This document shows, one piece after another, positions 6,405 through 35,322 of a stretch of 56,938 nt of DNA. The notes below the pieces were generated by a model. It searched no databases. It was not told where the DNA came from and saw only the letters and a list, made by a program, of their open reading frames with translations. Origin of the DNA: a virus. Its lineage: Duplodnaviria > Caudoviricetes. Position 1 is the first letter of the stretch. Each line of letters opens with the position of its first letter. The translations under genes and the position numbers were made by a program. The DNA lies in IMG/VR virus record IMGVR_UViG_3300022602_000115, positions 1 to 56,938 of that record, one strand, 5' to 3'.

Positions 6405-6470
6405 ATTATACTAGAAGTTGCATTAATGTCAACCAAAATGACAAAAACCCTACACTTGGTAGGGTTATTT
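6405..6470 (-). promoter_or_regulatory. Early promoter with upstream palindrome
   Basis: TTGACA-N16-TATAAT; ACCCTAC-N5-GTAGGGT within 6443..6470. Confidence 0.7.
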
Positions 6471-18520: not shown

Positions 18521-18533
18521 AATTAACAATCAA

Positions 18534-18609
18534 TGGAGCGGGATAAGAGATTCGAACTCTCGACCTCGACGTTGGCAACGTTGTGCTCTACCAGCTGAGC
18601 TAATCCCGC
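18534..18609 (-). tRNA. tRNA-Gly(GCC)
   Basis: Cloverleaf, loop TTGCCAA, encoded CCA. Confidence 0.95.
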
Positions 18610-18621
18610 ATTATAATGTAT

Positions 18622-19095
18622 TTATGCTGCCATGTATGACTTATATCTATCTGCTGCGTATGAAGCAGCGAATGCTTTTGGTTTAACCATAGGGATGACA
18701 TTACACATACCCTTGATGTAACCAGTAGCTTCGTTAATGACGCATGAAGAACCATGAATTTCATTTGGGTTAATGTCCAAGTGAACTTCTACTTCACGAT
18801 CTTCAAGTACATCATGTAACTTCATGTACAAGTCAGCAATTTTATAAACTTCATTCATCAGGCGCATACGTGGACGATTCTTGGTTTTATCCCAATCACG
18901 TTCTCGTTGCACTTCACCAAAAATCTTGCATCCGTTGTTTCCATTAATATGAACAACAACAACCAAGATGTAATCTGCGTACCAGTCTTTACCGATCAAA
19001 TGTCTTTCAGAATCTCCACCGATGTAGATTTTAGATTCTGGACTTTGCGCCATGATGAATTCTCTTACTTCATCAATGTCAATTTGCTTACGCAT
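18622..19095 (-). CDS. RNase H-like YkuK family protein
   Basis: IYIGGDS, RLMNEV, EVHLDIN, ASYAAD; start re-set after a GAGGT SD so it no longer overlaps the tRNA. Confidence 0.85.
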   Translation of the reverse strand: MRKQIDIDEVREFIMAQSPESKIYIGGDSERHLIGKDWYADYILVVVVHINGNNGCKIFGEVQRERDWDKTKNRPRMRLMNEVYKIADLYMKLHDVLEDREVEVHLDINPNEIHGSSCVINEATGYIKGMCNVIPMVKPKAFAASYAADRYKSYMAA

Positions 19096-19112
19096 ATCAT
19101 ACCTCATTTCTA

Positions 19113-19186
19113 TGGAGCGGGACACGAGAATCGAACTCGTAACTGAAGTTTGGAAGACTGCCGTTTTACCACTAAACTAGTCCCGC
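19113..19186 (-). tRNA. tRNA-Gly(TCC)
   Basis: Cloverleaf, loop CTTCCAA, CCA. Confidence 0.95.
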
Positions 19187-19192
19187 ATTATT

Positions 19193-19266
19193 TGGCTACC
19201 CAGCAGGGATTTGAACCCCGACCAACAGTTTTGGAGACTGGTATGCTGCCGTTACACTACTGAGTA
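19193..19266 (-). tRNA. tRNA-Trp(CCA)
   Basis: Cloverleaf, loop CTCCAAA, CCA. Confidence 0.93.
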
Positions 19267-19272
19267 ATATTA

Positions 19273-19473
19273 TTAAGCGTAAGTATTTTGTGTTAGATCT
19301 TCGCTAATTGTATGTATCAATTCTGCATTCTCACCATAAACCTTAGCATTATGACCAGTACCACGTGTCATATGTTTCGCATGCTCAATTGCTTCTTCAA
19401 GAGTATTATGTGTTGATGTTGCAATTTTTAACATGCCATTGACCCAACGATGAATCTTTACTGTATGTGACAT
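19273..19473 (-). CDS. Hypothetical protein
   Basis: ORF track; AAGGA SD. Confidence 0.7.
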   Translation of the reverse strand: MSHTVKIHRWVNGMLKIATSTHNTLEEAIEHAKHMTRGTGHNAKVYGENAELIHTISEDLTQNTYA

Positions 19474-20520
19474 TTATTTTCCTTTAAAATAGTTTTCCCA
19501 AATTGCTTTGGTTTTATTTGTATATCTTTTCATGGCAAATTGATTTAAATATGTATTCAATCTAGGATATTCATACGCATTCTTTAAACCCTCAACGATT
19601 CCTGCGCTTTCAGTTGGATCGCAACGACCAACAACCTGCCATGGTATTTCTTTACTACCAATCAAAGGAACTCCCTGAGAAATTAAATCAGCACCAACGA
19701 TGTTGAATGTTTCAGAGAAGTTACATTGCATACCTAAATCCATTTGAGCACACAGTTCCAGGAACTGTTCTCTTGGTGTCCAATTATGATTGATCAACTC
19801 ATGACCTTCATCATACACATGCTGAAATAAACCCTTAAGATTATGTACAGCTGGTCCACCATTCATTTCTATTCTACCTGCATTCACGTGAAAACGCAAC
19901 TTTTTATTGATTGAGTTTGCGAACTCAATTGCAGCAATTGCCTGAACCAAGTGATTTTTTAATGGACGAATCGCACCGAAACATCCAATGTCAATATACT
20001 CTTTTGTTTTGTCTAAAGTTTTGCGTTTAAACACTTGAGGATAGTAGTTCGGTAGATAGATTACTTTATAATCCCATATTCTCCATGGCGATTTTGCTTT
20101 CATAATCTCTTTAACTTCGCGCATCATACGTGGAGCATTGCAAGCTACATAAACATTATCCATCATTGCATACTCAGGAATCCAATCCATTGCTGGACCT
20201 TCACCTGACATAAAAGGCATCTCTGAATGTAAACGAACAATCCATTTAACATTCGGATGTAATTTCTTTAATACTTGGAATTTTTCTGGGACAACCCAGA
20301 GTGCTTCAATGATTACGTGAGTTGGTTTGTAATTAGAAACTTCTCTATCGATATGATTGTTATCTGGAACAACAACCATCTTTGATTCAATGCCAGCGTC
20401 AAGTAGCATGTTATCCATAAACTTTGCTGAGTTGTATAGACCTGTGCTTAGACCTATCGTATTATCTCTTTCAACATGGTAATCATCTTTTCGTTTTAGA
20501 ACGAACAGAACCTTTGACAT
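19474..20520 (-). CDS. Putative GT-B glycosyltransferase-like protein
   Basis: FGAIRPLKN, SETFNIVGAD and GVPLIGS resemble the GT4 donor-binding region. Confidence 0.65.
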   Translation of the reverse strand: MSKVLFVLKRKDDYHVERDNTIGLSTGLYNSAKFMDNMLLDAGIESKMVVVPDNNHIDREVSNYKPTHVIIEALWVVPEKFQVLKKLHPNVKWIVRLHSEMPFMSGEGPAMDWIPEYAMMDNVYVACNAPRMMREVKEIMKAKSPWRIWDYKVIYLPNYYPQVFKRKTLDKTKEYIDIGCFGAIRPLKNHLVQAIAAIEFANSINKKLRFHVNAGRIEMNGGPAVHNLKGLFQHVYDEGHELINHNWTPREQFLELCAQMDLGMQCNFSETFNIVGADLISQGVPLIGSKEIPWQVVGRCDPTESAGIVEGLKNAYEYPRLNTYLNQFAMKRYTNKTKAIWENYFKGK

Positions 20521-20588
20521 TTTATTTAATCTTAATAGTTAACATACAACTATTTAGCGTCGTTGTAATTTTTATAGTTTTATTAAAA

Positions 20589-20664
20589 TGGTGCCCTTTT
20601 ACGGATTCGAACCGCAGACCTCCTCATTACTAATGAGATGCTCTACCAACTGAGCTAAAAGGGC
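20589..20664 (-). tRNA. tRNA-Thr(AGT)
   Basis: Cloverleaf, loop TTAGTAA, G1-C72/C2-G71, CCA. Confidence 0.9.
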
Positions 20665-20686
20665 ATTAATCGTAAATTAAATTATT

Positions 20687-20762
20687 TGGTGGCGAAGGAG
20701 AGATCCGAGCTCCCAACCTTGTCCGTATGAAGAACCTGCTCTACCAGTTGAGCTACATCGCC
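20687..20762 (-). tRNA. tRNA-Met(CAT), elongator-like, atypical T-loop
   Basis: Loop TTCATAC; T-loop CTCGGAT; CCA. Confidence 0.75.
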
Positions 20763-20880
20763 ATTTAATTTTTTGTCTAATACAAATTCACCAGGAACAC
20801 AACTATACATTCTTTGTTTGTATGGTTTGTTTGATAATTTGTACAATATTTTAAAATCATCATCTTCCATATATTTCCTT

Positions 20881-20957
20881 TGGTGCCCCAAGAGAGACTC
20901 GAACTCTCAAAATTTGGCTTCTAAGACCAACACGTATACCAATTCCGTCATCGGGGC
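20881..20957 (-). tRNA. tRNA-Leu(TAG), short variable region
   Basis: Loop CTTAGAA; 5-nt variable loop; CCA. Confidence 0.88.
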
Positions 20958-20958
20958 A

Positions 20959-21127
20959 TATTGATTAGAGTACTGTTGTGATTTTAAGAGCATTCGCTCA
21001 CTAAATGTGCATTTAAGATTACCTTCGGCATCAGTAATCATCTCCGTATGACTGGAATTGGACACTTAGCGATGTTCTTCCCTAACAGTTGGGATTGCCT
21101 TTTCTTTTGCATTCACTCTAATCAATA
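20959..21127 (-). ncRNA. Putative structured RNA closed by a 13-bp stem
   Basis: Perfect inverted repeat TATTGATTAGAGT/ACTCTAATCAATA ending next to the tRNA-Leu 5' end. Confidence 0.45.
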
Positions 21128-21313
21128 GGAACTCTCCCTAAAGAATTCCACTTGAGTCTTTTGATATTGGACGACAGTCCTCAGGTCTGAACATCCGTAA
21201 GCGAAGTCCACCATCACTCGCTTATTTTTAACGATGGGACTTGCACCCACCACGACAAAGTGAGCCACGATAAACTAGGGATGTTTACCGTAAGCCTATC
21301 GGGACTAATTTTT

Positions 21314-21389
21314 TGGTTGCGGAGTGCTGGAATCGAACCAACGACCTGGAGCTTATGAGACTCCTGAGATACCACTTCTCCAACCCGCA
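21314..21389 (-). tRNA. tRNA-Met(CAT), initiator-like but atypical
   Basis: TGCGGG...CCGCAACCA acceptor as in fMet; loop CTCATAA; lacks the three consecutive G-C pairs next to the anticodon loop. Confidence 0.75.
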
Positions 21390-21390
21390 A

Positions 21391-21756
21391 TTAAACCTTT
21401 GACCACTCTTGGATATGACTTTTGTCAATCTTTCTTTGGTCACCTTTACCATATCTTGTTACCATGGTAACAATTCTTGGCACTATGTACAACTGAAACA
21501 TTATTTCATTATTACGTTTCTTCTCAACGTAATTATAAGGTTTACCAGCTAGATATGCTCTTGCCAGTTCAGTCGCACGACTTTCATTTCTAACATTCCA
21601 CTTACGATGATTAACAAGATCATTCAGTTTCCAGATTAGACTAATGTCAGTACCTTTGGTGTATTTAATTTGTTTCTTTAACTTTTTCTCTTCACGCTTG
21701 ATTATAGATGGTTCAAGTGCTAGATGTTTTGCTTTAATTTTTAATTCGATATTCAT
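21391..21756 (-). CDS. Conserved basic phage protein of unknown function
   Basis: LKIKAKHLALE, HRKWNVRNESRATELARAYLAGKPY motif; AAGGAG SD. Confidence 0.8.
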   Translation of the reverse strand: MNIELKIKAKHLALEPSIIKREEKKLKKQIKYTKGTDISLIWKLNDLVNHRKWNVRNESRATELARAYLAGKPYNYVEKKRNNEIMFQLYIVPRIVTMVTRYGKGDQRKIDKSHIQEWSKV

Positions 21757-21804
21757 TTAATTCTCCTTGATTGTTTAAAATAAAATTCCATACAAACAAG
21801 AAGA

Positions 21805-21840
21805 TTACGGAGGGCGAATCTACAAACGCATGTCTTTCAT
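21805..21840 (-). CDS. Minigene MKDMRL-UAG (readthrough product MKDMRL-X-IRPP)
   Basis: SD GAAAGGGA; ATG AAA GAC ATG CGT TTG TAG ATT CGC CCT CCG TAA; 23 nt downstream of the suppressor tRNA. Confidence 0.55.
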
Positions 21841-21863
21841 GGCATTCCCTTTCATTAAATTTT

Positions 21864-21940
21864 TGGTGCGTCAGACAGGAATCGAACCTGCTACAAATCG
21901 TTTTAGAGACGACCACCCCTACCTTTTGGGTTCCTGACGC
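21864..21940 (-). tRNA. Amber suppressor tRNA (anticodon CTA)
   Basis: Acceptor GCGTCAG/CTGACGC-A-CCA; anticodon arm GTCGT-CTCTAAA-ACGAT; T-arm GCAGG-TTCGATT-CCTGT; G instead of U at position 8. Confidence 0.88.
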
Positions 21941-22119
21941 AGATTTTCTTTCTGTTCCTCATCATTATATATAAACGCTGGAAAGAATTTCCATCCCCAG
22001 CTTTTCCAATATTTGTGTATAATGTTATTGATTGCTACAGCAGTGACAACAATAATAATAAAAGCCATTGATGTCAAAATTGTTCCAACTAAAAATACTG
22101 CTGCTTTATCAATATCCAT
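21919..22119 (-). CDS. Small membrane protein whose UAG stop lies inside the suppressor tRNA
   Basis: Start re-set to MDIDKAAVFLVG after a TAAGGA SD; long hydrophobic helix. Confidence 0.7.
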   Translation of the reverse strand: MDIDKAAVFLVGTILTSMAFIIIVVTAVAINNIIHKYWKSWGWKFFPAFIYNDEEQKENLRQEPKR

Positions 22120-22211
22120 TTTTACTTCCTTATTACAAAATAGTCGAGACACAGTGGTTGGTGGGTCACTGTTGATTATAATTACGCACCCCAATGCGAA
22201 TTTCTCATTAC

Positions 22212-22286
22212 TGGCTCCAGAGGCAGGGATCGAACCTACGACCAATTGATTAACAGTCAACTGCACTACCGCTGTGCTACTCTGGA
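22212..22286 (-). tRNA. tRNA-Asn(GTT)
   Basis: Cloverleaf, loop CTGTTAA, CCA. Confidence 0.95.
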
Positions 22287-22384
22287 ATAAATTTCTGGTG
22301 TGTATTTCTTACACGGCTTCCAACCTTCCGTGACGTTACGGTTGCTAACTTACCTGCAGGACGCGATAGCAACTATCTTACATT

Positions 22385-22459
22385 TGGCGACTCGTAGGAG
22401 AATCGAACTCCTGTATCCACTTAGACAGAGTGGCATAATGACCATTATATTAACGAGCC
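22385..22459 (-). tRNA. tRNA-Asp(GTC)
   Basis: Cloverleaf, loop CTGTCTA, CCA. Confidence 0.93.
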
Positions 22460-22467
22460 GAAAACTT

Positions 22468-22552
22468 TGGTGGAGATGGTAAGATTCGAACCTACTAGTC
22501 CTAGGAAACAGATTTACAGTCTGCCGCACCCCTCCAACTGTGCCGCATCTCC
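22468..22552 (-). tRNA. tRNA-Tyr(GTA)
   Basis: Loop CTGTAAA, long variable arm, CCA. Confidence 0.93.
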
Positions 22553-22709
22553 ATTGTTTTTGTTTAGTGCTATCATGCCGATTTGTCAACAATGTAGCTA
22601 GCACTGACAAGCGAATAGCAGTTATATCAGGATCCGTTCCTCGCACAGTTGGACCCGAATAGTCATAGCGTCCTATGACGATACCTTGATAACACTAAAC
22701 AAAAACAAT
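22553..22709 (-). ncRNA. Putative multi-hairpin RNA closed by a 23-bp stem
   Basis: 23-bp inverted repeat (one G-U pair on the minus strand) abutting the tRNA-Tyr 5' end; internal hairpin GTCATAG-GACG-CTATGAC. Confidence 0.55.
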
Positions 22710-22767
22710 TATGGTAGGAAAGGTCGCCCAATCCTTTCTTTACTACGAGACTTGTTTATAACCTCTA

Positions 22768-22992
22768 CCATATTAAATTATACTGGGGTATTTAGCAACA
22801 ACTCTCACCCGAGAGATAGCCACGTAGTCGTCCTACGATTGGTCGCATTATACATTACAATCCAATAATATCCAGCGTCCTCCTGATATAATCTCAAGGT
22901 TTCGTGTAAACTTAAAGTGGTCAGGACGGCTCCTGATTAACACCAAATTAAGCTACCTACTGGTATTGGCAACCCAATACAATTTAATATGG
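22768..22992 (-). ncRNA. Putative structured RNA closed by a 20-bp stem starting at the tRNA-Glu CCA
   Basis: CCATATTAAATTGTATTGGG pairs with CCCAGTATAATTTAATATGG, with two G-U pairs. Confidence 0.55.
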
Positions 22993-23064
22993 TACTGCGT
23001 ACGAGAGTCGAACTCGTCTTCTCAGGTTGAAAACCTGATGTCCTAACCGATAGACGAACGCAGT
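22990..23064 (-). tRNA. tRNA-Glu(TTC)
   Basis: Cloverleaf, loop TTTTCAA, CCA. Confidence 0.93.
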
Positions 23065-23165
23065 AAAGGTGGTGGTTTTGAAAAATCTGGAGACACCACC
23101 AACCAGTTTACTTATTACCTCATGCTTCCGACTTCACGTAAAGACTTAGAGAGGATTTTCAGAAT

Positions 23166-23243
23166 TTATTCTTTTGGAGCACCTGGAGCTTTACATCCCT
23201 TTACACCATTAAAATGCCATTTCCTGCAAAATACACATTCCAT
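23166..23243 (-). CDS. 25-aa Cys-rich peptide MECVFCRKWHFNGVKGCKAPGAPKE
   Basis: AAGGA SD; lies directly downstream of a consensus promoter. Confidence 0.45.
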   Translation of the reverse strand: MECVFCRKWHFNGVKGCKAPGAPKE

Positions 23244-23272
23244 AACAAATCCTTTTTAACTTCAGAACCTTA

Positions 23273-23427
23273 ATTATATCTTAGTTTCAAATTAATGTCA
23301 AGCATTATTTTCAACTATTTTAAAATTATTTTCAAGACTCCTTATCAACTTCAGAACCTTAATTATACTCTATTTGGTATAAATGTCAAGCAATTTAAAT
23401 AATAACCTTACCAGTGTAAGGGTTATT
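23273..23427 (-). promoter_or_regulatory. Tandem duplicated sigma70 promoters inside the tRNA array, plus palindrome
   Basis: TTGACA-N17-TATAAT (23273..23301) and TTGACA-N16-TATAAT (23362..23389), both followed by TAAGGTTCTGAAGTT; palindrome at 23401..23427. Confidence 0.75.
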
Positions 23428-23428
23428 T

Positions 23429-23504
23429 TGGAGTACGTGATAGGAATCGAACCTACATAAAACAGGGTTGCAAACTGTTCCCTAGCCATTCGGGTCACAC
23501 GTAC
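23429..23504 (-). tRNA. tRNA-Cys(GCA)
   Basis: Loop TTGCAAC, U73, CCA. Confidence 0.9.
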
Positions 23505-23509
23505 ATATT

Positions 23510-23588
23510 TGGTACCTCGAGTGAGATTCGAACTCACAGAATCTTCTCCTTTTGAGAGAGACGACTTTACCAATTTGTCCATCGAGGC
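23510..23588 (-). tRNA. tRNA-Leu(CAA), short variable region
   Basis: Loop CTCAAAA; ~7-nt variable region; CCA. Confidence 0.88.
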
Positions 23589-23589
23589 A

Positions 23590-23664
23590 TGGTGGGCTCA
23601 CCGAGATTCGAACTCGAACCTTATCAATTATGAGTTGACGGCACTACCTTTATGCTATAAGCCC
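23590..23664 (-). tRNA. tRNA-CAT, probably Ile2 (lysidine type)
   Basis: Loop CTCATAA; GGGCTTA acceptor; Ile2 versus Met identity is inferred. Confidence 0.75.
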
Positions 23665-23670
23665 AACAAC

Positions 23671-23745
23671 TGGGGCGGCAAGAAGGAATCGAACCCTCAT
23701 TCGTAGGGTAGAAGCCTACTGTATTGTCCATTATACGATCGCCGC
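23671..23745 (-). tRNA. tRNA-Arg(TCT)
   Basis: Arm GTAGG-CTTCTAC-CCTAC; CCA. Confidence 0.92.
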
Positions 23746-23751
23746 AAAAAC

Positions 23752-23837
23752 TGGTACGAGTGGAGGGACTTGAACCCTCAATCCATTACTGGCGACAGAT
23801 TTTAAGTCTGTAGTGTATACCATTCCACCACACTCGC
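23752..23837 (-). tRNA. tRNA-Leu(TAA)
   Basis: Loop CTTAAAA, long variable arm, CCA. Confidence 0.93.
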
Positions 23838-23839
23838 AT

Positions 23840-23929
23840 TGGCAGTGAGTCAGGGAGTCGAACCCTGTGACCTGCTTTCACAAGTCTACGGATTAGCAAT
23901 CCGCTGCATTACCATCCTGCCCACTCACT
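23840..23929 (-). tRNA. tRNA-Ser(GCT)
   Basis: Loop TTGCTAA, long variable arm, G73, CCA. Confidence 0.92.
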
Positions 23930-24482
23930 AATAATTGCCATTGGTAAATCCTACTGTACCACCCTCATCTTTAATCTTTTGGATTACTTGCTCAAACAAG
24001 ATGGGTCTGAAGTCTGTTTGTTCAACGCAGACAGAGTGGTACCTCGGATCAATTTTACCATTCAACATAACACGATTACTATGCAAGTGACCATGAATGT
24101 TAACACCAAATCTACCCAACGAATCGCTATGAATAGGTATGTGGCTTAAGATCATTCCATTCATCACGTGGTATGCACGTAACTCACGAAAGTGTTCACG
24201 GTAGTCGTCATCTTTAAAGATGTCATGGTTACCACGAATTAAAACCTTATCGCCATTTAACCTACGCATGATTCCCAATGCTTTGCGATTGATAACAACA
24301 TCACCAAGATGATAAACTTTATCTGTTGGCTTTACTGTTTCGTTCCACATTTTAACCATGGCTTCATCCATTTCTTCGGCATTATCCCATGGTCTTAATT
24401 TTGTCACACCATCGTCACGAGTGAACCTGCATACACCAGCATGACCGAAGTGCGTATCACTTACTAAAAATACACTTGGCAT
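23928..24482 (-). CDS. Calcineurin-like metallophosphoesterase
   Basis: SDTHFGH, HLGDV, RGNHD, LSHIP, HGHLH. Confidence 0.9.
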   Translation of the reverse strand: MPSVFLVSDTHFGHAGVCRFTRDDGVTKLRPWDNAEEMDEAMVKMWNETVKPTDKVYHLGDVVINRKALGIMRRLNGDKVLIRGNHDIFKDDDYREHFRELRAYHVMNGMILSHIPIHSDSLGRFGVNIHGHLHSNRVMLNGKIDPRYHSVCVEQTDFRPILFEQVIQKIKDEGGTVGFTNGNY

Positions 24483-24509
24483 ATACAACTCCTTTTCAAT
24501 TTAATCATT

Positions 24510-24538
24510 ATTATACCTTACTTCTTAATCAAAGTAAA
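24510..24538 (-). promoter_or_regulatory. Sigma70-type promoter
   Basis: TTTACT-N17-TATAAT; near-identical to the promoter at 33682..33710. Confidence 0.7.
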
Positions 24539-24548
24539 GCATTATTTT

Positions 24549-24642
24549 TGGCGGAGAGCAGAGGAGTCGAACCCCATCCACATTTCTGCAGAACCCAGTT
24601 TTCAAGGCTGGTCGGGGAACCAACTCCCCTGCATTACTCTCC
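24549..24642 (-). tRNA. tRNA-Ser(TGA)
   Basis: Loop CTTGAAA, long variable arm, CCA. Confidence 0.92.
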
Positions 24643-24647
24643 ATATT

Positions 24648-24723
24648 TGGTACCCAATAGAGGAATCGAACCTCTACCTCTGCGTTCGTAGCACAGTATG
24701 ATCATCCATTTCACCAATCGGGC
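24648..24723 (-). tRNA. tRNA-Arg(ACG)
   Basis: Loop CTACGAA, CCA. Confidence 0.92.
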
Positions 24724-24729
24724 ATAACT

Positions 24730-24803
24730 TGGTACCTCGTGACAGAATCGAACTGCCGTATCCCACTTGTAAGGAGGGTGTTTTACCATTCAACTAACGA
24801 GGC
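24730..24803 (-). tRNA. tRNA-Val(TAC)
   Basis: Loop CTTACAA, CCA. Confidence 0.92.
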
Positions 24804-24809
24804 AAAATT

Positions 24810-24884
24810 TGGTGGACCGTAAGAGAATCGAACTCTTACCTCTGACGTGCAAAGCCAGCGTGCTCCCATTATCACTAACAGCCC
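24810..24884 (-). tRNA. tRNA-Ala(TGC)
   Basis: Loop TTTGCAC, G3-U70, CCA. Confidence 0.93.
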
Positions 24885-24891
24885 AAAACAT

Positions 24892-24968
<77 letters not shown>

Positions 24969-24976
24969 ATAAAAAC

Positions 24977-25050
24977 TGGTGCTCCGCGACAGAATCGAAC
25001 TGCCGTCTTCGGATTACAAAACCGACATAATGCCATTATACTAGCAGAGC
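24977..25050 (-). tRNA. tRNA-Thr(TGT)
   Basis: Loop TTTGTAA, CCA. Confidence 0.93.
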
Positions 25051-25053
25051 AAT

Positions 25054-25127
25054 TGGTTCCTTCGACAAGAATTGAACTTGTATCTATCGGTTATCAGCCG
25101 ATTGCTCTACCACTGAGCTACGAAGGA
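25054..25127 (-). tRNA. tRNA-Ile(GAT)
   Basis: Loop CTGATAA, CCA. Confidence 0.93.
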
Positions 25128-25136
25128 ATAAAACTT

Positions 25137-25212
25137 TGGTGCAACCTGTAGGAATCGAACCTACTTCAATGGCTCTTCAGACCACCGCTATGACCACATC
25201 AGCTAAAGTTGC
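25137..25212 (-). tRNA. tRNA-Phe(GAA)
   Basis: Loop CTGAAGA, CCA. Confidence 0.93.
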
Positions 25213-25214
25213 AT

Positions 25215-25290
25215 TGGGGTATTCTATGAGGATCGAACTCATACTATCTCGGTCACAGCGAGAGGTGCAGACCACTACACTAAGAACACC
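25215..25290 (-). tRNA. tRNA-His(GTG)
   Basis: Loop CTGTGAC, G-1:C73, CCA. Confidence 0.92.
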
Positions 25291-25294
25291 ACTG

Positions 25295-25776
25295 ACCATA
25301 TAGAAACACACTCGGTGCTGATCAGGCACTTACAGGAATTGAACCTGCCACTCCGGAGTCCAGAGCTGTATCCAACAAACCAATGCGCTTGGTCTGAATG
25401 TGTTTTTATATGGTGTAGTAATTGGGTATCGAACCCAACTAGTCGTTTGTTTTACAAACAGGCGATATCATTTCCTGCCGCCATATGCCCCTCGGGTTTG
25501 CAATCCTGCTACGCATACGGTCAAACAACTTGTCGACCATGACTTACCACCATATAGAAACACACTAGACGAGGCGACCTCGTGGCCACAAGTTCCTGCT
25601 TATCTCTAATGTGTTTTTATATGGTGTTGGATATGTGCATTTATCTACTGTCCAACACAATAGGTCATTTCGTAGCACATTACGCTATGATATTTACTAC
25701 CATATAGAAACACACTAACCTTGAAGAAGCCAGGTATAAATCTAGCAACGAATCAGCCAGTATGTTTTTATATGGT
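25295..25776 (-). repeat. Three cassettes of conserved 18-bp inverted repeats enclosing variable inserts
   Basis: ACCATATAGAAACACACT at 25295, 25549 and 25699, paired with A(A/G)T(G/A)TGTTTTTATATGGT at 25397, 25608 and 25759. Confidence 0.9.
25411..25550 (-). ncRNA. 140-nt tRNA-like RNA (acceptor stem, T-arm and CCA; no anticodon arm)
   Basis: GTGGTAA/TTACTAC-A-CCA acceptor with G3-U70; T-arm TTGGG-TTCGATA-CCCAA; helix AGTTGTTTG/CAAACGACT. Confidence 0.7.
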
Positions 25777-25846
25777 AGGGGCACAGAGAATCGAACTCTG
25801 ATTAATAGGTTAAAAGCCTACTACTTTGCCGTTAAGTTATACCCCC
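25773..25846 (-). tRNA. tRNA-Lys(TTT)
   Basis: Loop CTTTTAA, CCA. Confidence 0.93.
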
Positions 25847-25850
25847 GAAT

Positions 25851-25926
25851 TGGTCCACTCAGTGAGATTCGAACTCACACCTCATTGATTAAGAGTCAAG
25901 TGCGCTACCATTAACGCTACGAGTGG
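25851..25926 (-). tRNA. tRNA-Lys(CTT)
   Basis: Loop CTCTTAA, CCA. Confidence 0.93.
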
Positions 25927-25951
25927 GTTGTCGTAATTAATTTTATTTTAC

Positions 25952-26009
25952 GTGCCAACCCAAGACCAATACGGGATCTTGAGCGACACTAGAGTTTACC
26001 TCGCTTCAT
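25952..26009 (-). other. Minigene MKRGKL-UAG (25989..26009) followed immediately by a ~15-bp hairpin
   Basis: AGGAGA SD; ATG AAG CGA GGT AAA CTC TAG; hairpin GTGTCG-CTCAAGATC/GGTCTTGGG-TTGGCAC. Confidence 0.55.
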
Positions 26010-26138
26010 GTCATTCTCCTGTTAAATTAAAAAAAGATTGGTTGCGATGTTGAGTACCTTACTGGCCAACGCTCAAGTTCATCCAGTCGCTTCTAGGTCA
26101 TAATCTGCGAGTAATTAATTCGCTTCATATCATCACTA

Positions 26139-26218
26139 CCAAACAGAAATGCAATGCCCCACAACCATAGCAGATCATTACCAGCGGACTGCGATTTACG
26201 CAATGCATTTCTGTTTGG
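26139..26218 (-). ncRNA. Putative hairpin RNA starting at the tRNA-Gln CCA
   Basis: Perfect 15-bp inverted repeat CCAAACAGAAATGCA/TGCATTTCTGTTTGG. Confidence 0.55.
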
Positions 26219-26289
26219 CACCCGAGATAAGAATCGAACTTATACTAACAGAGTCAAAGTCTGTTGTGCTACCACTACACCACTCGGGA
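26216..26289 (-). tRNA. tRNA-Gln(TTG); first tRNA of the array
   Basis: Loop CTTTGAC, G73, CCA. Confidence 0.93.
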
Positions 26290-26304
26290 ACATTTGGTAC
26301 GCAA

Positions 26305-26389
26305 ATTTTTAAAGAACAGAAGCAATTATACCTTAATTTATATTAATGTCAAATTTCTTCTTTAATAACCCTACTGGATAGTAGGGTAT
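26305..26389 (-). promoter_or_regulatory. Promoter of the tRNA array with boxA-like element and palindrome
   Basis: TTGACA-N16-TATAAT (26325..26352); downstream TGTTCTTTAAAAA resembles rrn boxA; palindrome at 26364..26389. Confidence 0.65.
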
Positions 26390-26426
26390 AAAACAAAAAA
26401 CCCTCTAGACTTTCATCTTAGAGGGT
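26390..26426 (-). terminator. Intrinsic terminator (candidate attenuator)
   Basis: ACCCTCTA/TAGAGGGT stem followed by TTTTTGTTTT. Confidence 0.85.
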
Positions 26427-26457
26427 AGGATTGATAAAATAAACTTGTTAATTTACT

Positions 26458-26580
26458 TTAGCCATCCCACCCCTCATCATACTCAATCGCTGTGGCAACG
26501 AACTGTGGACGTGAGCATGTCCAGCCACTATTAAGTGGAAGATGTTTATTCAACGATCTGGATATGTTTAACGATTTCAT
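26458..26580 (-). CDS. 40-aa leader peptide containing all 20 amino acids
   Basis: MKSLNISRSLNKHLPLNSGWTCSRPQFVATAIEYDEGWDG; ATG lies 7 nt after a perfect -10 box (leaderless); below the ORF-track cutoff. Confidence 0.75.
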   Translation of the reverse strand: MKSLNISRSLNKHLPLNSGWTCSRPQFVATAIEYDEGWDG

Positions 26581-26587
26581 AGTAGAA

Positions 26588-26662
26588 ATTATACGTCTCT
26601 TTTGTTTAAATGTCAAGTAAATTTAAAAATAACCCTACTTCTTGTAAGGTTATTTATTTATA
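26588..26662 (-). promoter_or_regulatory. Perfect sigma70 promoter, palindrome and T4 late promoter
   Basis: TTGACA-N17-TATAAT (26588..26616); palindrome at 26628..26654; TATAAATA at 26655..26662. Confidence 0.85.
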
Positions 26663-26666
26663 CATC

Positions 26667-26963
26667 TTAGTTCGGCACTAGGACGTATTGTTGATAATTA
26701 TTTTGAGGATTAATCATTAACTGGTAATGATAACCTACAGGTGGCACAGGTAATTGTGGTTGTTGATATACAACAGGTGGTTGCTGGACAATCACTGGTT
26801 GTTGCACAACAACAGGTGGACGAGCAAGTTCATAACCAATCACACCACCAATAACTGCTGGACCAACCCAACCATATGGATGGTATCCATAACCACGATA
26901 GCAACATGCCTCGGCAGATGCAACACCAGATAACAATACTAATGCTAGAATAAGTTTCTTCAC
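26667..26963 (-). CDS. Secreted Pro/Gln/Tyr-rich small protein
   Basis: Signal peptide MKKLILALVLLSGVASAEA; PVVVQQP repeats; AGGAG SD. Confidence 0.75.
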   Translation of the reverse strand: MKKLILALVLLSGVASAEACCYRGYGYHPYGWVGPAVIGGVIGYELARPPVVVQQPVIVQQPPVVYQQPQLPVPPVGYHYQLMINPQNNYQQYVLVPN

Positions 26964-26997
26964 AATTATCTCCTTGTTAGACTTATTATACTACATC

Positions 26998-27005
26998 TAT
27001 TTATA
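26998..27005 (-). promoter_or_regulatory. T4-type late promoter
   Basis: TATAAATA upstream of 26667..26963. Confidence 0.6.
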
Positions 27006-27009
27006 AATG

Positions 27010-28548
27010 TCAAGTTATTTCTGTTCTACCTTTTGTTCCATATGTTGCATAAAATGCCTTCGCCCAACCTTCTGTTGTGTAGCAGGTGTCCATCATTTTC
27101 TTTTTAAATGCTTCTTTTTCTGGAATAATTTTATTCTCATACACATAAATCGCATCTTGAGAGTTCAAATTATAAAGTCTATCTCTAATTTTATCTTTAT
27201 CGAATAGATGTAGAGCCTGTCCAACTGTCAGGAAACTGCCAGCTGAGTAAGCTGAGTAGAGATTGTATTCTCCAAGGATACCATTCCCCCACATATCAAC
27301 ATAATCTTTAACACGATCAGTCCAAGTCGAACGATCTTTTAGTTTTAACCAGTAAGAACTGTCAGTTCGTTTACCTCTGTAATGCAGATTTATAAAATCA
27401 ATCACACCTGTAGTTTGACGAAGCATCTCTTCGTTGTATAATTTCTTTTCTGCAACTCCAGTTTTATTGTATGGATCCCAGTACAAAGAAAGATTAACAA
27501 TACTATGAACAGCAACACCAAGACCATTAGACTCAAGTGGTTCTGCAAATCCAGTACTTATACCAACACCAATGACATTGTTTTTCCAAAATTCAGATGC
27601 CAAGTCTGGCTTATATGTAAACGATGCGATTGGATCAATTTTAATGTTAAATCTTTTTTCAGCTTCTTCAAGAGCCTGATCAGCAGTTATTTCTGTATTG
27701 TCGTAGATATATCCATTTCCGCTTCTATTTCGTATATTGATGTTCCAAGACCATCCATACTTCATAGCAGTTAGTTCAGTGTATGATTTATACTCAACCT
27801 CTTTACCCCACCAACCAAGAACTGATGAAGCAGGAAACTGTTGTGAGTAATCAATATATTTTACACCAAGAGCTTCTTTCAACAACAGTTTAGCAAAACC
27901 AGAACAATCAAAAAACCAATCTCCTTCAATAGAAGTGGCATCATCAAATATCAATGATAAAATATCACCAGTATCTCCATCATATGTATGTTTTACAAAT
28001 TTCTTTTCAAGTAACTTTACGCCTCGCACTAAACCAATCTTCTTAAGATAAGCAGCATTCGCTCTGCTATCGAAATGATACATTGGCATAATATACGCAT
28101 CATATCCTCTCTTGTCAGATGTAACATGAGGGATCATGTTGTTTTCTAAAAGACAATTCCAGTAATATGAATCGGATACGCTAATACCTTTGTCAAGAGT
28201 TATAAGATCATACAATTGATGTGTTATTGGAGCAGATTCTGCAATCTGTTTCTGTCTCTTATTTGTATCGATGACAGAATGTGTGAAAGTATGACCAAGA
28301 TCATACCAATCAACAAACTTTCCACCAAGTTTTGGCATTGCGTTTGTGTTGATAGCCCATTGAAACAAATCAATATCTAACTCTTCGAGCAAATTATTAA
28401 CAGCAAAAGAACCAGACTCTCCTGCAATAATTGGTGGTTTACTTGGATCTTCGACAACAGTTATATCAAGATTTTTCCATTTCTTTTTAAGAAACAAAGC
28501 CGTTAACCAACCAGCAGTTCCGCCACCAAGAATAACAATCTTTTTCAT
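27010..28548 (-). CDS. Flavin-dependent halogenase, tryptophan-halogenase family
   Basis: GGGTAG, IAGES, PKLG (catalytic Lys position), FFDCSGF, WSWNI (WxWxI), FAEPLESNG. Confidence 0.88.
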   Translation of the reverse strand: MKKIVILGGGTAGWLTALFLKKKWKNLDITVVEDPSKPPIIAGESGSFAVNNLLEELDIDLFQWAINTNAMPKLGGKFVDWYDLGHTFTHSVIDTNKRQKQIAESAPITHQLYDLITLDKGISVSDSYYWNCLLENNMIPHVTSDKRGYDAYIMPMYHFDSRANAAYLKKIGLVRGVKLLEKKFVKHTYDGDTGDILSLIFDDATSIEGDWFFDCSGFAKLLLKEALGVKYIDYSQQFPASSVLGWWGKEVEYKSYTELTAMKYGWSWNINIRNRSGNGYIYDNTEITADQALEEAEKRFNIKIDPIASFTYKPDLASEFWKNNVIGVGISTGFAEPLESNGLGVAVHSIVNLSLYWDPYNKTGVAEKKLYNEEMLRQTTGVIDFINLHYRGKRTDSSYWLKLKDRSTWTDRVKDYVDMWGNGILGEYNLYSAYSAGSFLTVGQALHLFDKDKIRDRLYNLNSQDAIYVYENKIIPEKEAFKKKMMDTCYTTEGWAKAFYATYGTKGRTEIT

Positions 28549-35257: not shown

Positions 35258-35322
35258 ATTATACGCTGATTGTAGTAAATGTCAAGTAAAAATGTGAAAA
35301 ACCCTACCAAAAGTAGGGTTTT
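35258..35322 (-). promoter_or_regulatory. Early promoter with upstream palindrome
   Basis: TTGACA-N16-TATAAT; AAAACCCTAC-N5-GTAGGGTTTT. Confidence 0.7.

What the first reader, a model, noticed from the sequence alone, without database searches (positions are those of the whole stretch)
26305..26616. Candidate universal tRNA-starvation attenuator: a leader peptide with all 20 amino acids gating the phage tRNA array
Seen: a perfect TTGACA-N17-TATAAT promoter lies 7 nt before the ATG of a 40-codon ORF (26458..26580). The ORF uses 30 distinct codons and has included all 20 amino acids by codon 35; uniform sampling would need about 72 residues on average. It samples several isoacceptor boxes (Ser TCG/TCC/AGT/TCA, Leu TTA/TTG/CTT, Ile ATA/ATT, Arg AGA/CGT). 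Codons 36-39 (GAGGGGUGGGAU) pair with AUCCUACCCUC downstream, extended by UAAAGUAAAUU/AGUUUAUUUUA. That 3' arm overlaps the 5' arm of an intrinsic terminator (26390..26426). A boxA-like element and a tRNA array covering all 20 amino acids follow. Established: mutually exclusive antiterminator/terminator hairpins are the trp/his attenuation logic, but those leaders sense one or a few amino acids; host anticodon nucleases destroy tRNAs during infection. Inference: a ribosome reaching the stop blocks the antiterminator, whereas stalling at any depleted tRNA allows readthrough, so tRNAs are boosted on demand. Caveat: a second promoter-like sequence (N16 spacer, 26325..26352) lies after the terminator, so this may be a booster rather than the sole switch.
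Basis: partly seen in the sequence, partly recalled or inferred. Interest (0 to 1): 0.95.

Follow-up and report, generated by a model that had tools for sequence, protein, structure and literature searches.

The report
All-amino-acid leader gating phage tRNAs
A lake-water T4-like phage, like dozens of its relatives, puts a tiny gene that uses nearly every amino acid in front of a stop/go RNA switch ahead of its tRNA genes, which looks like a sensor that makes more tRNAs whenever decoding of any codon slows.

Summary
The window holds a perfect sigma-70 promoter 7 nt before the ATG, a 40-codon ORF with all 20 amino acids, an antiterminator hairpin that overlaps an intrinsic terminator, a boxA and a 29-30 tRNA array.

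I collected tRNA-array starts from related IMG/VR phage contigs without using the leader as a search key. There were 51 distinct array-start modules. In 47 the ORF ending at the terminator has 50 codons or fewer; 34 of these have 20 amino-acid types and 10 have 19. Background ORFs of 35-45 aa reach 20 types in 6 of 1247 cases. The peptides fall into about 14 sequence clusters, and Cys, His and Tyr change position within a family.

Cognate antiterminator arms pair far better than permuted arms: -18.0 against -13.2 kcal/mol, with 0 of 10,000 permutations as low. Terminator stems covary. The -10 box ends 5-10 nt before the start codon in 34 of 53 modules, implying a leaderless mRNA. No second promoter follows the terminator in 13 of 53.

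The boxA 17-mer is identical to the rRNA-operon boxA of Polynucleobacter and Pseudomonas.

My best reading is ribosome-mediated attenuation that senses whole-repertoire decoding. Nothing has been tested experimentally. I found no cultured member and no description in print.

The parts
26627..26655 (-). Stem-loop (AAATAACCTTAC..GTAGGGTTATTT) after the preceding 98-aa gene. It is the stem-loop half of a PeSL-like stem-loop plus promoter cassette.
   Evidence: Listed as terminator-like. The GTAGGGTTAT motif occurs 16 times against 2.1 expected.
26588..26616 (-). Promoter P1, TTGACA-N17-TATAAT. Its -10 box ends 7 nt before the ATG, so the transcript should begin at or next to the AUG (leaderless mRNA).
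   Evidence: The same geometry (-10 box ending 5-10 nt before the start codon) is found in 34 of 53 related modules.
26458..26580 (-). Leader ORF of 40 codons plus TAA, with all 20 amino acids and 30 distinct codons.
   Evidence: Homologues and analogues appear.
26464..26475 (-). Antiterminator 5' arm, GAGGGGTGGGAT (codons 36-39).
   Evidence: Folds. Duplex of -17.5 kcal/mol.
26435..26460 (-). Inner stem of the antiterminator (TAAAGTAAATT / AGTTTATTTTA). The stop codon lies inside it.
26421..26431 (-). Antiterminator 3' arm, ATCCTACCCTC. Its last 5 nt are the first 5 nt of the terminator 5' arm.
26391..26425 (-). Intrinsic terminator: CCCTCTA, an 11-nt loop, TAGAGGG, then TTTTTTGTTT.
   Evidence: Forms at -16.5 kcal/mol when the ORF end is excluded. 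In 17 relatives the stem is 99.1% paired, with compensatory changes at 4 of 7 pairs.
26360..26386 (-). Stem-loop ACCCTACT-ATCC-AGTAGGGT, just upstream of P2 (PeSL-like cassette).
26325..26352 (-). Promoter P2, TTGACA-N16-TATAAT, downstream of the terminator.
   Evidence: Present in 40 of 53 related modules and absent in 13.
26306..26318 (-). boxA, TGTTCTTTAAAAA. The 17-mer TGTTCTTTAAAAATTTG spans 26318..26302.
   Evidence: Of 132 hits of the 16-mer in viral contigs, 77 lie just before a tRNA. The 17-mer sits in rRNA operons in 10 of 10 bacterial loci checked.
18534..26289 (-). tRNA array: 29 ARAGORN tRNAs plus tRNA-Ser(UGA) at 24553..24642. tRNA-Gln (26216..26289) comes first.

Best explanation
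This is a ribosome-dependent transcription attenuator that gates, or in this window boosts, transcription of the phage tRNA array. Its leader ORF is built to sample the whole decoding repertoire.

Proposed sequence of events:
1. Host RNA polymerase starts at P1 and makes an mRNA that begins at the AUG of the 40-codon ORF.
2. The last four codons and the stop codon form the 5' side of a long hairpin, the antiterminator. Its 3' side contains CCCUC, which the terminator stem also needs.
3. If a ribosome keeps pace with the polymerase and reaches the end of the ORF, it unwinds or covers the 5' arm. The terminator then folds and the transcript ends after about 190 nt.
4. If the ribosome is delayed at any codon, or never loads, the antiterminator persists. 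The polymerase reads through and crosses a boxA identical to the host-type rRNA-operon boxA. I infer that this recruits Nus-factor antitermination, which would carry the polymerase through about 8 kb of untranslated tRNA genes.

The ORF holds all 20 amino acids, both codon boxes of Leu, Ser and Arg, and AUA. The switch therefore reports the slowest step of the whole tRNA pool. More phage tRNA would speed the leader and shut the switch again, giving negative feedback.

Shown here: the anatomy, its conservation, the composition and codon bias, the alternative folds and the arm covariation.

Inferred: the transcription start site, translation of the ORF, the response to stalling, boxA function and the natural trigger.
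For: Composition.
- There are 51 distinct array-start modules, chosen by tRNA and terminator position only. In 47 the ORF ending at the terminator has 50 codons or fewer. Of these, 34 have 20 amino-acid types, 10 have 19, and one each has 18, 17 and 13.
- Apparent exceptions start with GTG and are then complete.
- Null values: P(20 types) = 0.007 for 40-mers, and 6 of 1247 background ORFs reach 20.

Independence of the examples.
- The peptides form about 14 sequence clusters.
- In family 1, Cys sits at alignment column 4/5 or at column 24, His at 7, 11 or 13, and Tyr at 29, 36, 38 or 40.
- In family 1, 15 of 16 peptides are complete, against 0.125 expected if alignment columns were independent. 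In family 2, 10 of 16 are complete against 0.236.

Codon level, in 49 leaders.
- Both Leu boxes are present in 42 (31.4 expected), both Ser boxes in 47 (36.1) and both Arg boxes in 34 (20.6).
- ATA is present in 38 (17.6 expected).
- The mean number of decoding units is 25.9, against 24.3 after synonymous resampling; the highest of 300 resampled means is 24.8.
- Leader codons are read by 341 of 379 phage tRNA species, against 312.6 expected.

Switch structure.
- The antiterminator region folds at -22.3 kcal/mol, against -12.9 for shuffles; terminators average -13.3.
- The terminator-arm partner lies within the last 35 nt of the ORF in 52 of 52 modules. The minimum-free-energy fold of the whole region is the terminator in 20 and the antiterminator in 24.
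- Cognate arms give -18.0 against -13.15 +/- 0.47 for permuted arms, with 0 of 10,000 permutations as low. Thirteen ordinary ORF/terminator sites give -7.3.
- Masking the ORF end flips the fold from antiterminator to terminator in three different modules.
- In family 1 the terminator stem is 99.1% paired with 4 of 7 compensatory pairs, and the antiterminator is 94.9% paired against 29-71% when the partner is slid by 1-3 columns.

Translation signals.
- 34 of 53 modules have leaderless geometry and 8 have a Shine-Dalgarno sequence.
- An ORF is intact in every module.

Gate.
- 13 of 53 modules have no promoter between the terminator and the first tRNA, which lie 40-59 nt apart.

boxA.
Against: - No expression or functional data exist. 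RNA-library contigs cover mainly the tRNAs. The single contig of a relative that bridges leader, tRNA-Gln and tRNA-Lys could be DNA carry-over.
- A second promoter follows the terminator in the window and in 40 of 53 modules. In most phages, therefore, the switch can only add to a basal level.
- Completeness is not strict. Ten of 47 short leaders have 19 types and 3 have fewer. Database variants of family 1 lack Cys.
- Counting only codons upstream of the antiterminator arm, 24 of 49 leaders have 20 types and 15 have 19. With a 13-nt ribosome-footprint margin, only 1 of 49 has 20. Some amino acids therefore sit where a stalled ribosome might mask the arm. The reading needs the ribosome's unwinding point, not its footprint edge, to set the limit, and that figure comes from recalled literature.
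- Peptide motifs are conserved within families (KHLPLxSGW, EYRT..SW). They could reflect a peptide or RNA function that I did not test.
- Within family 1 the antiterminator arms hardly vary: 2 pairs change on both sides, and 59 of 500 shuffles do as well. The covariation evidence for the antiterminator comes from between-family comparison.
- Sequences are related, so counts of sequences overstate the number of independent events.
- No 1:2-type pause or anti-antiterminator hairpin is evident.
Confidence: 0.7

Rival explanations
1. General translation-activity sensor. The switch is real, but what it reads in nature is whether ribosomes load on and move along a leaderless mRNA at all. Causes could be host shut-off, ribosome inactivation or initiation changes after infection, rather than shortage of a particular tRNA. 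The broad composition would then only make the ORF an average message.
For: The anatomy is the same as in the best explanation. With no ribosome the antiterminator is the default fold, so any block of translation gives read-through. Leaderless starts occur in 34 of 53 modules and depend on 70S initiation (recalled).
Against: This does not explain why completeness is maintained through relocation of single Cys, His and Tyr residues. It does not explain why both codon boxes of Leu, Ser and Arg and the rare ATA codon are over-represented relative to synonymous resampling. An average message of 40 codons would carry about 16.6 types.
Confidence: 0.15
2. Independent small-protein gene. P1, the ORF and the terminator are a self-contained early gene for a 31-46 residue peptide that has its own function. 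The hairpin over the stop codon is a stabilising 3' structure, and the tRNA array is driven by P2 or by other promoters.
For: Motifs are conserved within families. P2 is present in 40 of 53 modules. Five database proteins are called 'hypothetical protein' or carry no name.
Against: About 14 clusters without detectable similarity share only position, length, composition and the hairpin geometry. The module always sits directly before the first tRNA of an array. In 13 of 53 modules no promoter lies between the terminator and the tRNA. The hairpin specifically sequesters the terminator's 5' arm and covaries with it, whereas 13 ordinary gene-end/terminator sites show no such pairing (-7.3 kcal/mol).
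Confidence: 0.08
3. Non-coding RNA. The roughly 190-nt P1 transcript is a small RNA or a processing/structural leader, and the ORF is not translated.
For: There is no Shine-Dalgarno sequence in the window. The leader RNA is more structured than shuffles, z = -3.2.
Against: An intact ORF of 27-46 codons ends at the same place in the hairpin in every module, across clusters that share no sequence. The start codon sits at the predicted transcription start in 34 of 53 modules or behind a Shine-Dalgarno sequence in 8. No Rfam family matches the leader.
Confidence: 0.03

Closest known systems
Leader-peptide transcription attenuators of amino-acid biosynthetic operons (trpL, hisL, leuL, pheL; multivalent thrL and ilv leaders). 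Recalled textbook knowledge; pheL paper PMC3082878 seen as search listing only.
   Same: A short translated leader, an intrinsic terminator, and an antiterminator that competes for the terminator's 5' arm. Ribosome position decides which one folds. Completed translation gives termination.
   Different: Those leaders carry runs of one to three cognate amino acids, start from a Shine-Dalgarno sequence, have an extra 1:2 hairpin and control biosynthetic enzymes. This leader samples 19-20 amino acids once or a few times each, is mostly leaderless, shows no evident 1:2 hairpin and controls tRNA genes of a virus.
Leaderless polycysteine short ORFs acting as Cys-responsive attenuators in mycobacteria (bioRxiv 10.1101/834739; title and start of abstract seen in the listing).
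   Same: A leaderless mRNA whose first short ORF regulates downstream genes through ribosome progress.
   Different: That system senses one amino acid, belongs to the host chromosome and does not concern tRNA genes.
Translation-stress-sensing leader peptides of antibiotic-resistance and related genes (erm, cat, vmlR-type leaders, toiL). Recalled; not looked up here.
   Same: Ribosome stalling in a leader ORF switches downstream expression, and the signal is translation status rather than one metabolite.
   Different: Those leaders respond to drug-bound ribosomes at specific peptide motifs. None is reported to need a complete amino-acid set or to drive tRNA genes.
T-box riboswitches.
   Same: Antiterminator/terminator choice coupled to tRNA status.
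   Different: T-boxes bind one uncharged tRNA directly, have no ORF and control aminoacyl-tRNA synthetase or amino-acid genes. No T-box match was found in 18000..27500.
rRNA-operon boxA / Nus-factor antitermination.
   Same: The phage element is identical over 17 nt to the boxA in the 16S-23S spacer or leader of Polynucleobacter, Pseudomonas and other Burkholderiales rRNA operons. It precedes long untranslated RNA genes.
   Different: It stands before a phage tRNA array and downstream of a translational attenuator. Factor binding has not been tested.
PeSL cassettes (promoter-early stem-loops) of T4-like phages (PMC2839356, listing only; PMC4122927, passages read).
   Same: Repeated stem-loop plus sigma-70 early promoter units. 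In the window, stem-loops ATAACCCTAC..GTAGGGTTAT sit next to five of the eight perfect promoters. This explains why P2 is present or absent between relatives.
   Different: The stem-loop sequence differs from the published ones. PeSLs are not translational switches.

Membership tests
Ribosome-mediated (leader-peptide) transcription attenuator | Short ORF with a usable start directly behind a promoter | tested here: met
   In the window the -10 box ends 7 nt before the ATG. Of 53 modules, 34 have the -10 box ending 5-10 nt before the start, 8 have a Shine-Dalgarno sequence, 8 have neither by my criteria and 3 are over-extended ORFs. Three apparent exceptions start with GTG.
Ribosome-mediated (leader-peptide) transcription attenuator | Intrinsic terminator between the leader ORF and the regulated genes | tested here: met
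   GC-rich 7-10 bp stem plus U-run in every module. Folds. Compensatory changes at 4 of 7 stem pairs.
Ribosome-mediated (leader-peptide) transcription attenuator | Antiterminator mutually exclusive with the terminator, with its 5' arm inside or next to the ORF end | tested here: met
   The partner of the terminator arm lies 0-35 nt upstream of the stop codon in 52 of 52 modules.
Ribosome-mediated (leader-peptide) transcription attenuator | Runs or clusters of codons for the one amino acid that is sensed | tested here: not met
   There are no runs. Instead, 19-20 different amino acids occur in 31-46 codons. This is the respect in which it is a variant.
Ribosome-mediated (leader-peptide) transcription attenuator | Upstream 1:2 (pause / anti-antiterminator) hairpin | tested here: inconclusive
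   The minimum-free-energy fold of the window leader shows only small local hairpins in the ORF and none pairing with the antiterminator arm. This was not examined across relatives.
Ribosome-mediated (leader-peptide) transcription attenuator | Read-through rises when the ribosome stalls in the leader | not testable with these tools
   This needs reporter fusions, coupled in vitro transcription-translation or Term-seq.
rrn-type boxA antitermination site | Sequence identity with the boxA of rRNA operons | tested here: met
   TGTTCTTTAAAAATTTG lies between the spacer tRNAs and 23S, or before 16S, in 10 of 10 bacterial loci checked out of 80 listed. The resemblance to the E. coli consensus is recalled.
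rrn-type boxA antitermination site | Position after the promoter and before the structural RNA genes | tested here: met
   Of 132 occurrences of the 16-mer in viral contigs, 77 lie within 150 nt upstream of a tRNA, at array starts and at internal restarts before tRNA-Glu.
rrn-type boxA antitermination site | Binding of NusB/NusE and resistance to Rho | not testable with these tools
   No assay is available here.
T-box riboswitch | Match to the T-box covariance model (specifier loop and T-box sequence) | tested here: not met
   No T-box hit at E <= 1 in 18000..27500.

The most novel reading that the evidence does not exclude
A whole family of freshwater T4-like phages carries a 'universal decoding meter'. 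It is a leaderless mini-gene selected to contain every amino acid and both codon boxes of the six-fold amino acids, and it is biased towards wobble-read and rare codons. It runs a kinetic race against RNA polymerase and switches the phage's own tRNA factory on whenever any single tRNA of the infected cell is limiting. The cause could be codon-pool mismatch in a new host or tRNA-cleaving defence systems. As phage tRNAs accumulate, the switch turns off again. This would be the first attenuator known to sense the entire tRNA pool and the first regulatory circuit described for a viral tRNA array.
Probability: 0.55. Interest if true: 0.92.

Novelty: new variant of a known kind. Interest (0 to 1): 0.88.

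Why it matters
Why phages carry tRNA arrays has been debated for about 50 years. The candidates include codon compensation and escape from tRNA-targeting defences (the latter two ideas: PMC10264068, where I saw the abstract start and ran a term search; PMC11555353 and PMC12409363, listings only). Almost nothing is known about how these arrays are regulated. A term search of PMC10264068 found no mention of attenuation, leader, promoter or terminator.

A conserved sensor in front of the array would say what the phage itself 'measures' before investing in tRNAs. That makes the question directly testable. The design principle is also new for attenuation: one copy of everything instead of many copies of one thing.

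The element is small, about 230 bp, and is built from sigma-70, intrinsic-terminator and boxA parts that should work in laboratory proteobacteria. It could therefore serve as a compact reporter of global decoding capacity.

The finding also shows that gene callers systematically miss this gene. Only 5 proteins were found in a 5.8-billion-protein collection, and none carried an informative name.

Tried and rejected
1. Relatives found through the neighbouring Trp-halogenase-like gene. All 42 loci had no tRNA, so they were of no use for this question.

2. Cultured relatives.
- blastn of three different modules against 50,697 phage records matched only tRNA genes or nothing.
- The best protein hits were Synechococcus phage BUCT-ZZ01 (phosphoesterase, 59%) and Methylophilales phage Melnitz (primase, 47%). 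The BUCT-ZZ01 region has no annotated tRNAs.
- Acinetobacter phages Acj61 and 133 show no such module before their arrays. In Acj61 the preceding ORF is 60 aa with 18 types.
- Vibrio phage KVP40: the 700 nt before the first annotated tRNA hold ORFs of 73 aa with 18 types, 31 aa with 17 and 29 aa with 14, and no module. That region also contains further tRNA-like sequences, so its array start is unclear.

3. Rfam gave no family for the leader.

4. A MAFFT alignment of 48 of the 51 modules (A2) put the antiterminator arms out of register, so it was not used for pair counts. I used alignment-free comparison of cognate against permuted duplexes instead. I did not build a covariance model.

5. RNA evidence. 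Four metatranscriptome runs were laid as contigs. Cover falls on tRNA-Lys and tRNA-Gln. One 807-nt contig of a relative touches the leader ORF, the boxA/tRNA-Gln region and tRNA-Lys. No cover of the window's own leader was seen. Contigs cannot show starts, ends or absence, so this is neither support nor evidence against.

6. A stricter 'sensing window' (codons at least 13 nt before the arm) gives completeness in only 1 of 49 leaders. I report this as evidence against the simplest geometry.

No earlier findings were seen.

8. Supplementary files of papers were not consulted. The PeSL papers' supplementary tRNA tables might list arrays worth checking.

9. Rows dropped.
- The composition counts use all 51 array-start modules.
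- For the codon and structure analyses I kept ORFs with at least 17 amino-acid types.
- I dropped L238 (30 aa, 13 types), L055 (the end of the phosphoesterase gene) and the 52-aa MIELIT/MIQLIN ORFs before lone tRNA-Met genes. The dropped rows that had an ORF served as the 13 natural controls.
- Codon-usage expectations come from the window's long ORFs only (12,673 codons).
Full report
WHAT IS THERE

The window is an IMG/VR virus record judged about 35% complete. All long ORFs are on the minus strand. The primase is gp61-like, 47% identical to that of Methylophilales phage Melnitz and about 42% to those of cyanomyoviruses. The stretch is held by lake-water metagenomes. It is therefore a freshwater T4-like phage.

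On the minus strand the elements run in this order:

| Element | Coordinates | Detail |
|---|---|---|
| Stem-loop | 26655..26627 | follows the preceding 98-aa gene |
| Promoter P1 | 26616..26588 | TTGACA-N17-TATAAT |
| Spacer | 7 nt | no Shine-Dalgarno sequence |
| Leader ORF | 26580..26458 | 40 codons plus TAA |
| Long hairpin (antiterminator) | 26475..26421 | contains the stop codon |
| Intrinsic terminator | 26425..26391 | stem, 11-nt loop, U-run |
| Second stem-loop | 26386..26360 | precedes P2 |
| Promoter P2 | 26352..26325 | TTGACA-N16-TATAAT |
| boxA-like element | 26318..26306 | TGTTCTTTAAAAA |
| tRNA-Gln | 26289..26216 | first of 29 ARAGORN tRNAs |

The array also holds a tRNA-Ser(UGA) that only the Rfam scan picked up. 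Eight perfect consensus promoters, all on the coding strand, occur against 0.08 expected. P1 is therefore not a chance match.

IS THE ALL-20 ORF MORE THAN LUCK?

Taken alone it might not be. Random 40-mers with this phage's amino-acid usage are complete with P = 0.007. Six of 1247 background ORFs of 35-45 aa in the window and its relatives are complete. I therefore collected relatives in two ways, neither of which uses the leader:
- through the phosphoesterase gene that lies inside the tRNA array, giving 80 loci at 76-87% identity;
- through the boxA 16-mer, giving 114 stretches; 132 motif hits, of which 77 lie just before a tRNA.

A first look with tblastn and phmmer found 12 homologues of the window peptide, 10 of them distinct. 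All have 20 amino-acid types in 37-44 residues.

I then applied a rule based on position only:
1. Take every tRNA with no tRNA in the 500 nt upstream. This gave 382 sites.
2. Find a stem-plus-U-run terminator 30-350 nt upstream. This left 91 sites.
3. Take the longest ATG ORF whose stop lies from 90 nt before the terminator stem to 20 nt past its first base, using GTG or TTG only if no ATG ORF of at least 25 aa exists.

Sites followed by at least 2 more tRNAs within 1.5 kb gave 51 distinct modules, of which 47 have ORFs of 50 codons or fewer. Of those 47, 34 have 20 types, 10 have 19, and one each has 18, 17 and 13. Three of the four longer ORFs are over-extended versions of the same leaders and have 20 types. 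The fourth is the end of a real gene.

The 18 other distinct sites are lone tRNAs or contig ends. Three had no ORF. Most of the rest have 13-18 types, and the four with 19-20 types include at least three leader modules cut off by contig ends. Three apparent exceptions start with GTG and are then complete.

INDEPENDENCE OF THE EXAMPLES

The leaders fall into about 14 clusters, most without recognisable similarity to one another. Examples include a 31-residue and a 32-residue peptide that each hold all 20 types.

Within the two large families the rare residues move. In family 1:
- Cys is at alignment column 4/5 in seven sequences, at column 24 in eight, and at columns 5 and 20 in one;
- His is at column 7, 11 or 13;
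- Tyr is at column 29, 36, 38 or 40.

If columns were independent, only 12.5% (family 1) and 23.6% (family 2) of sequences would be complete. Observed are 15 of 16 and 10 of 16. Shared descent inflates this contrast, but the relocations themselves need either a double or a missing intermediate.

Completeness is not absolute. Close variants differ by loss of one type (L068 against L230, L164 against L049). Three family-1 proteins in the public protein collection lack Cys.

CODON LEVEL

I compared the 49 leaders with synonymous resampling from the phage's own codon usage.

| Feature | Observed | Expected |
|---|---|---|
| Both Leu codon boxes present | 42 | 31.4 |
| Both Ser codon boxes present | 47 | 36.1 |
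| Both Arg codon boxes present | 34 | 20.6 |
| ATA present | 38 | 17.6 |
| Mean decoding units per leader | 25.9 | 24.3 (highest of 300 resampled means, 24.8) |

In 16 loci with at least 24 tRNAs, leader codons are read by 341 of 379 phage tRNA species under strict wobble, against 312.6 expected.

Leader codon usage is also skewed against the phage's genes:
- TTT 69 against TTC 3, and TAT 49 against TAC 2;
- GAT 49 against GAC 4, and ATT 51 against ATC 6;
- GAG 45 against GAA 17;
- NNC and NNG are favoured in four-codon boxes, and NNT is depleted.

Where the phage tRNA has G34 or U34, the wobble-read or rarer codon is preferred. Rare codons are known to sharpen attenuators (leu leader, recalled). 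I treat this as suggestive, because related sequences are not independent and part of the bias may reflect conserved nucleotides.

THE SWITCH

The leader RNA of the window folds with the antiterminator as its minimum-free-energy structure, z = -3.2.

Folding from just after the stop codon gives the terminator: -16.5 kcal/mol in the window, -19.2 in L049 and -16.8 in L068. Adding the last 20-30 nt of the ORF flips the fold to the antiterminator at about -26 kcal/mol, and the terminator stem is lost. This holds in all three, which belong to two different families.

Across 52 distinct modules:
- the region from the ORF end to the terminator 5' arm folds at -22.3 kcal/mol, against -12.9 for shuffles;
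- terminators average -13.3 kcal/mol;
- the partner of the terminator arm always lies in the last 35 nt of the ORF;
- the fold of the whole region shows the terminator in 20 and the antiterminator in 24, as expected for two states of similar stability.

The arms differ widely between clusters. Examples are GAGGGTTTTGG/CCAAAACCCTC, GAGGGGTGGGAT/ATCCTACCCTC, CTGGGTTTTGTG/CACAAAACCCAG and ACCGAGGG/CCCTCGGT, and each pair stays complementary. Cognate pairs give -18.0 kcal/mol against -13.15 +/- 0.47 for permuted pairs, with 0 of 10,000 permutations as low. Thirteen ordinary ORF/terminator sites from the same loci give -7.3.

On the family-1 alignment the terminator is 99.1% paired, with compensatory changes at 4 of 7 pairs and 0 of 500 shuffles reaching its covariation score. 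The antiterminator is 94.9% paired, against 29-71% when the partner is slid. It is nearly invariant within the family, so it offers little covariation there.

TRANSLATION SIGNALS AND THE GATE

In 34 of 53 modules a near-consensus promoter ends 5-10 nt, mostly 6-7 nt, before the start codon. That places the canonical +1 on the A of AUG. Eight modules have a Shine-Dalgarno sequence instead (sequences). Two different ways of starting translation at the same ORF argue that it is translated.

In 13 of 53 modules nothing promoter-like lies between the terminator and the first tRNA, which are only 40-59 nt apart. In those modules, array transcription from the nearest promoter must pass the terminator.

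In 40 of 53 modules, including the window, a second promoter is present. In the window it comes with the stem-loop ATACCCTACT..AGTAGGGTTAT. This stem-loop is repeated next to five of the eight perfect promoters and resembles the PeSL stem-loop plus early-promoter cassettes of T4-like phages (PMC4122927, passages). A mobile cassette would explain why P2 comes and goes. In such phages the attenuator can only add to a basal level.

boxA

The 17-mer TGTTCTTTAAAAATTTG was found in at least 120 stretches of bacterial genomes. I checked ten of them: Pseudomonas/Aquipseudomonas, Polynucleobacter and other Burkholderiales. In all ten it lies in an rRNA operon, between the spacer tRNAs and 23S or just before 16S. 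This is where boxA sits (recalled).

The phage therefore carries the exact rRNA-operon boxA of beta- and gamma-proteobacteria in front of its tRNA genes. In relatives it appears again before an internal restart at tRNA-Glu. This fits Nus-factor antitermination of a long untranslated transcript and hints at a Polynucleobacter-like host. Both points are inference.

HOW IT MOST LIKELY WORKS

The element sets up a race between the first ribosome and RNA polymerase.
- If the ribosome reaches the last codons in time, it opens the 5' arm, the terminator folds and the transcript ends.
- If the ribosome is late at any codon, the antiterminator holds and the tRNA array is transcribed from the strong P1.

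An open point is how close to the arm a stall still counts. Counting all codons before the arm, 39 of 49 leaders have 19-20 types. With a 13-nt footprint margin, only 15 of 49 do.

The missing types are typically supplied by the three or four codons just before the arm. In the window these are exactly E, Y and D. This suggests that those codons are under the same selection. That is compatible with the ribosome having to unwind the first arm bases, the ones paired to CCCUC, before the terminator can form. The unwinding point about 11 nt from the P site is recalled, not tested.

WHAT IS KNOWN

Five full-text searches found no description of a leader with all amino acids or of an attenuator before phage tRNA genes. 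The eLife paper on phage tRNAs and defence does not mention attenuation, leader, promoter or terminator.

The protein collection holds 5 relatives of the peptide. None carries an informative name; two are labelled 'hypothetical protein'.

The mechanism class, ribosome-mediated attenuation, is classical. What is new is the sensor design, the regulated genes and the viral setting.

VERDICT

It is a new variant of a known kind of switch and of high interest.

Noticed in passing
window 21864..21940 (-): A tRNA with anticodon CUA, which ARAGORN labels 'Pyl'. It is an amber-suppressor-type tRNA inside the array. Some related leaders end in TAG (for example L219, L133, L134).
   Followed up: no
window 24553..24642 (-): A long-arm tRNA that ARAGORN missed and Rfam scored as tRNA-Sec-like (35.9 bits, below the cut-off). 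The anticodon loop reads CTTGAAA, so it is tRNA-Ser(UGA). This brings the array to 30 tRNAs.
   Followed up: partly
window 6405..6468, 23362..23421, 26325..26386, 26588..26655, 35258..35322 (-): A repeated cassette: the stem-loop ATAACCCTAC-N4-6-GTAGGGTTAT directly upstream of a perfect TTGACA-N16/17-TATAAT promoter. It resembles the PeSL mobile regulatory cassettes of T4-like phages.
   Followed up: partly
window 26302..26318 (-); bacterial loci L244, L258, L262, L267, L275, L282, L301, L313, L315, L321: The phage boxA 17-mer is identical to the rRNA-operon boxA of Polynucleobacter, Pseudomonas and other Burkholderiales. This is a possible host hint for an uncultured lake phage.
   Followed up: partly
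window 27010..28548 (-): A 512-aa Trp-halogenase-family flavoprotein (Pfam PF04820, E = 3e-78) sits just upstream of the leader. It has 42 relatives at 28-45% identity on other viral contigs, none of them near tRNAs.
   Followed up: partly
window 26667..26963 (-): A 98-aa ORF with a signal-peptide-like N-terminus and a Pro/Gln/Val-rich repeat region. It has its own perfect promoter (27013..26985) and a Shine-Dalgarno sequence, and no Pfam match.
   Followed up: no
window 23166..23389 (-): Two tandem perfect promoters after tRNA-Cys are followed by a 25-aa Cys-rich ORF (MECVFCRKWHFNGVKGCKAPGAPKE) before tRNA-Glu. A similar peptide occurs in L054. In many relatives a second boxA copy stands at this internal restart.
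   Followed up: no
leader ORFs of 49 modules (window 26458..26580 and loci L046-L235): Leader codon usage is strongly skewed against the phage's own genes. TTT, TAT, GAT and ATT are preferred over their C-ending partners. GAG is preferred over GAA. NNC and NNG are favoured and NNT depleted in four-codon boxes. CGC occurs in 40 of 49 leaders.
   Followed up: partly
window 25773..26544, RNA run X22 record 21: One 807-nt contig from a lake metatranscriptome, belonging to a relative, matches part of the leader ORF, the boxA/tRNA-Gln region and tRNA-Lys. This would fit a read-through transcript, but DNA carry-over cannot be excluded.
   Followed up: no
L366 (Vibrio phage KVP40, 181214..181913): The region upstream of the first annotated KVP40 tRNA holds further tRNA-like sequences with insertions. 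These overlap the annotated CDS KVP40.0319.
   Followed up: no
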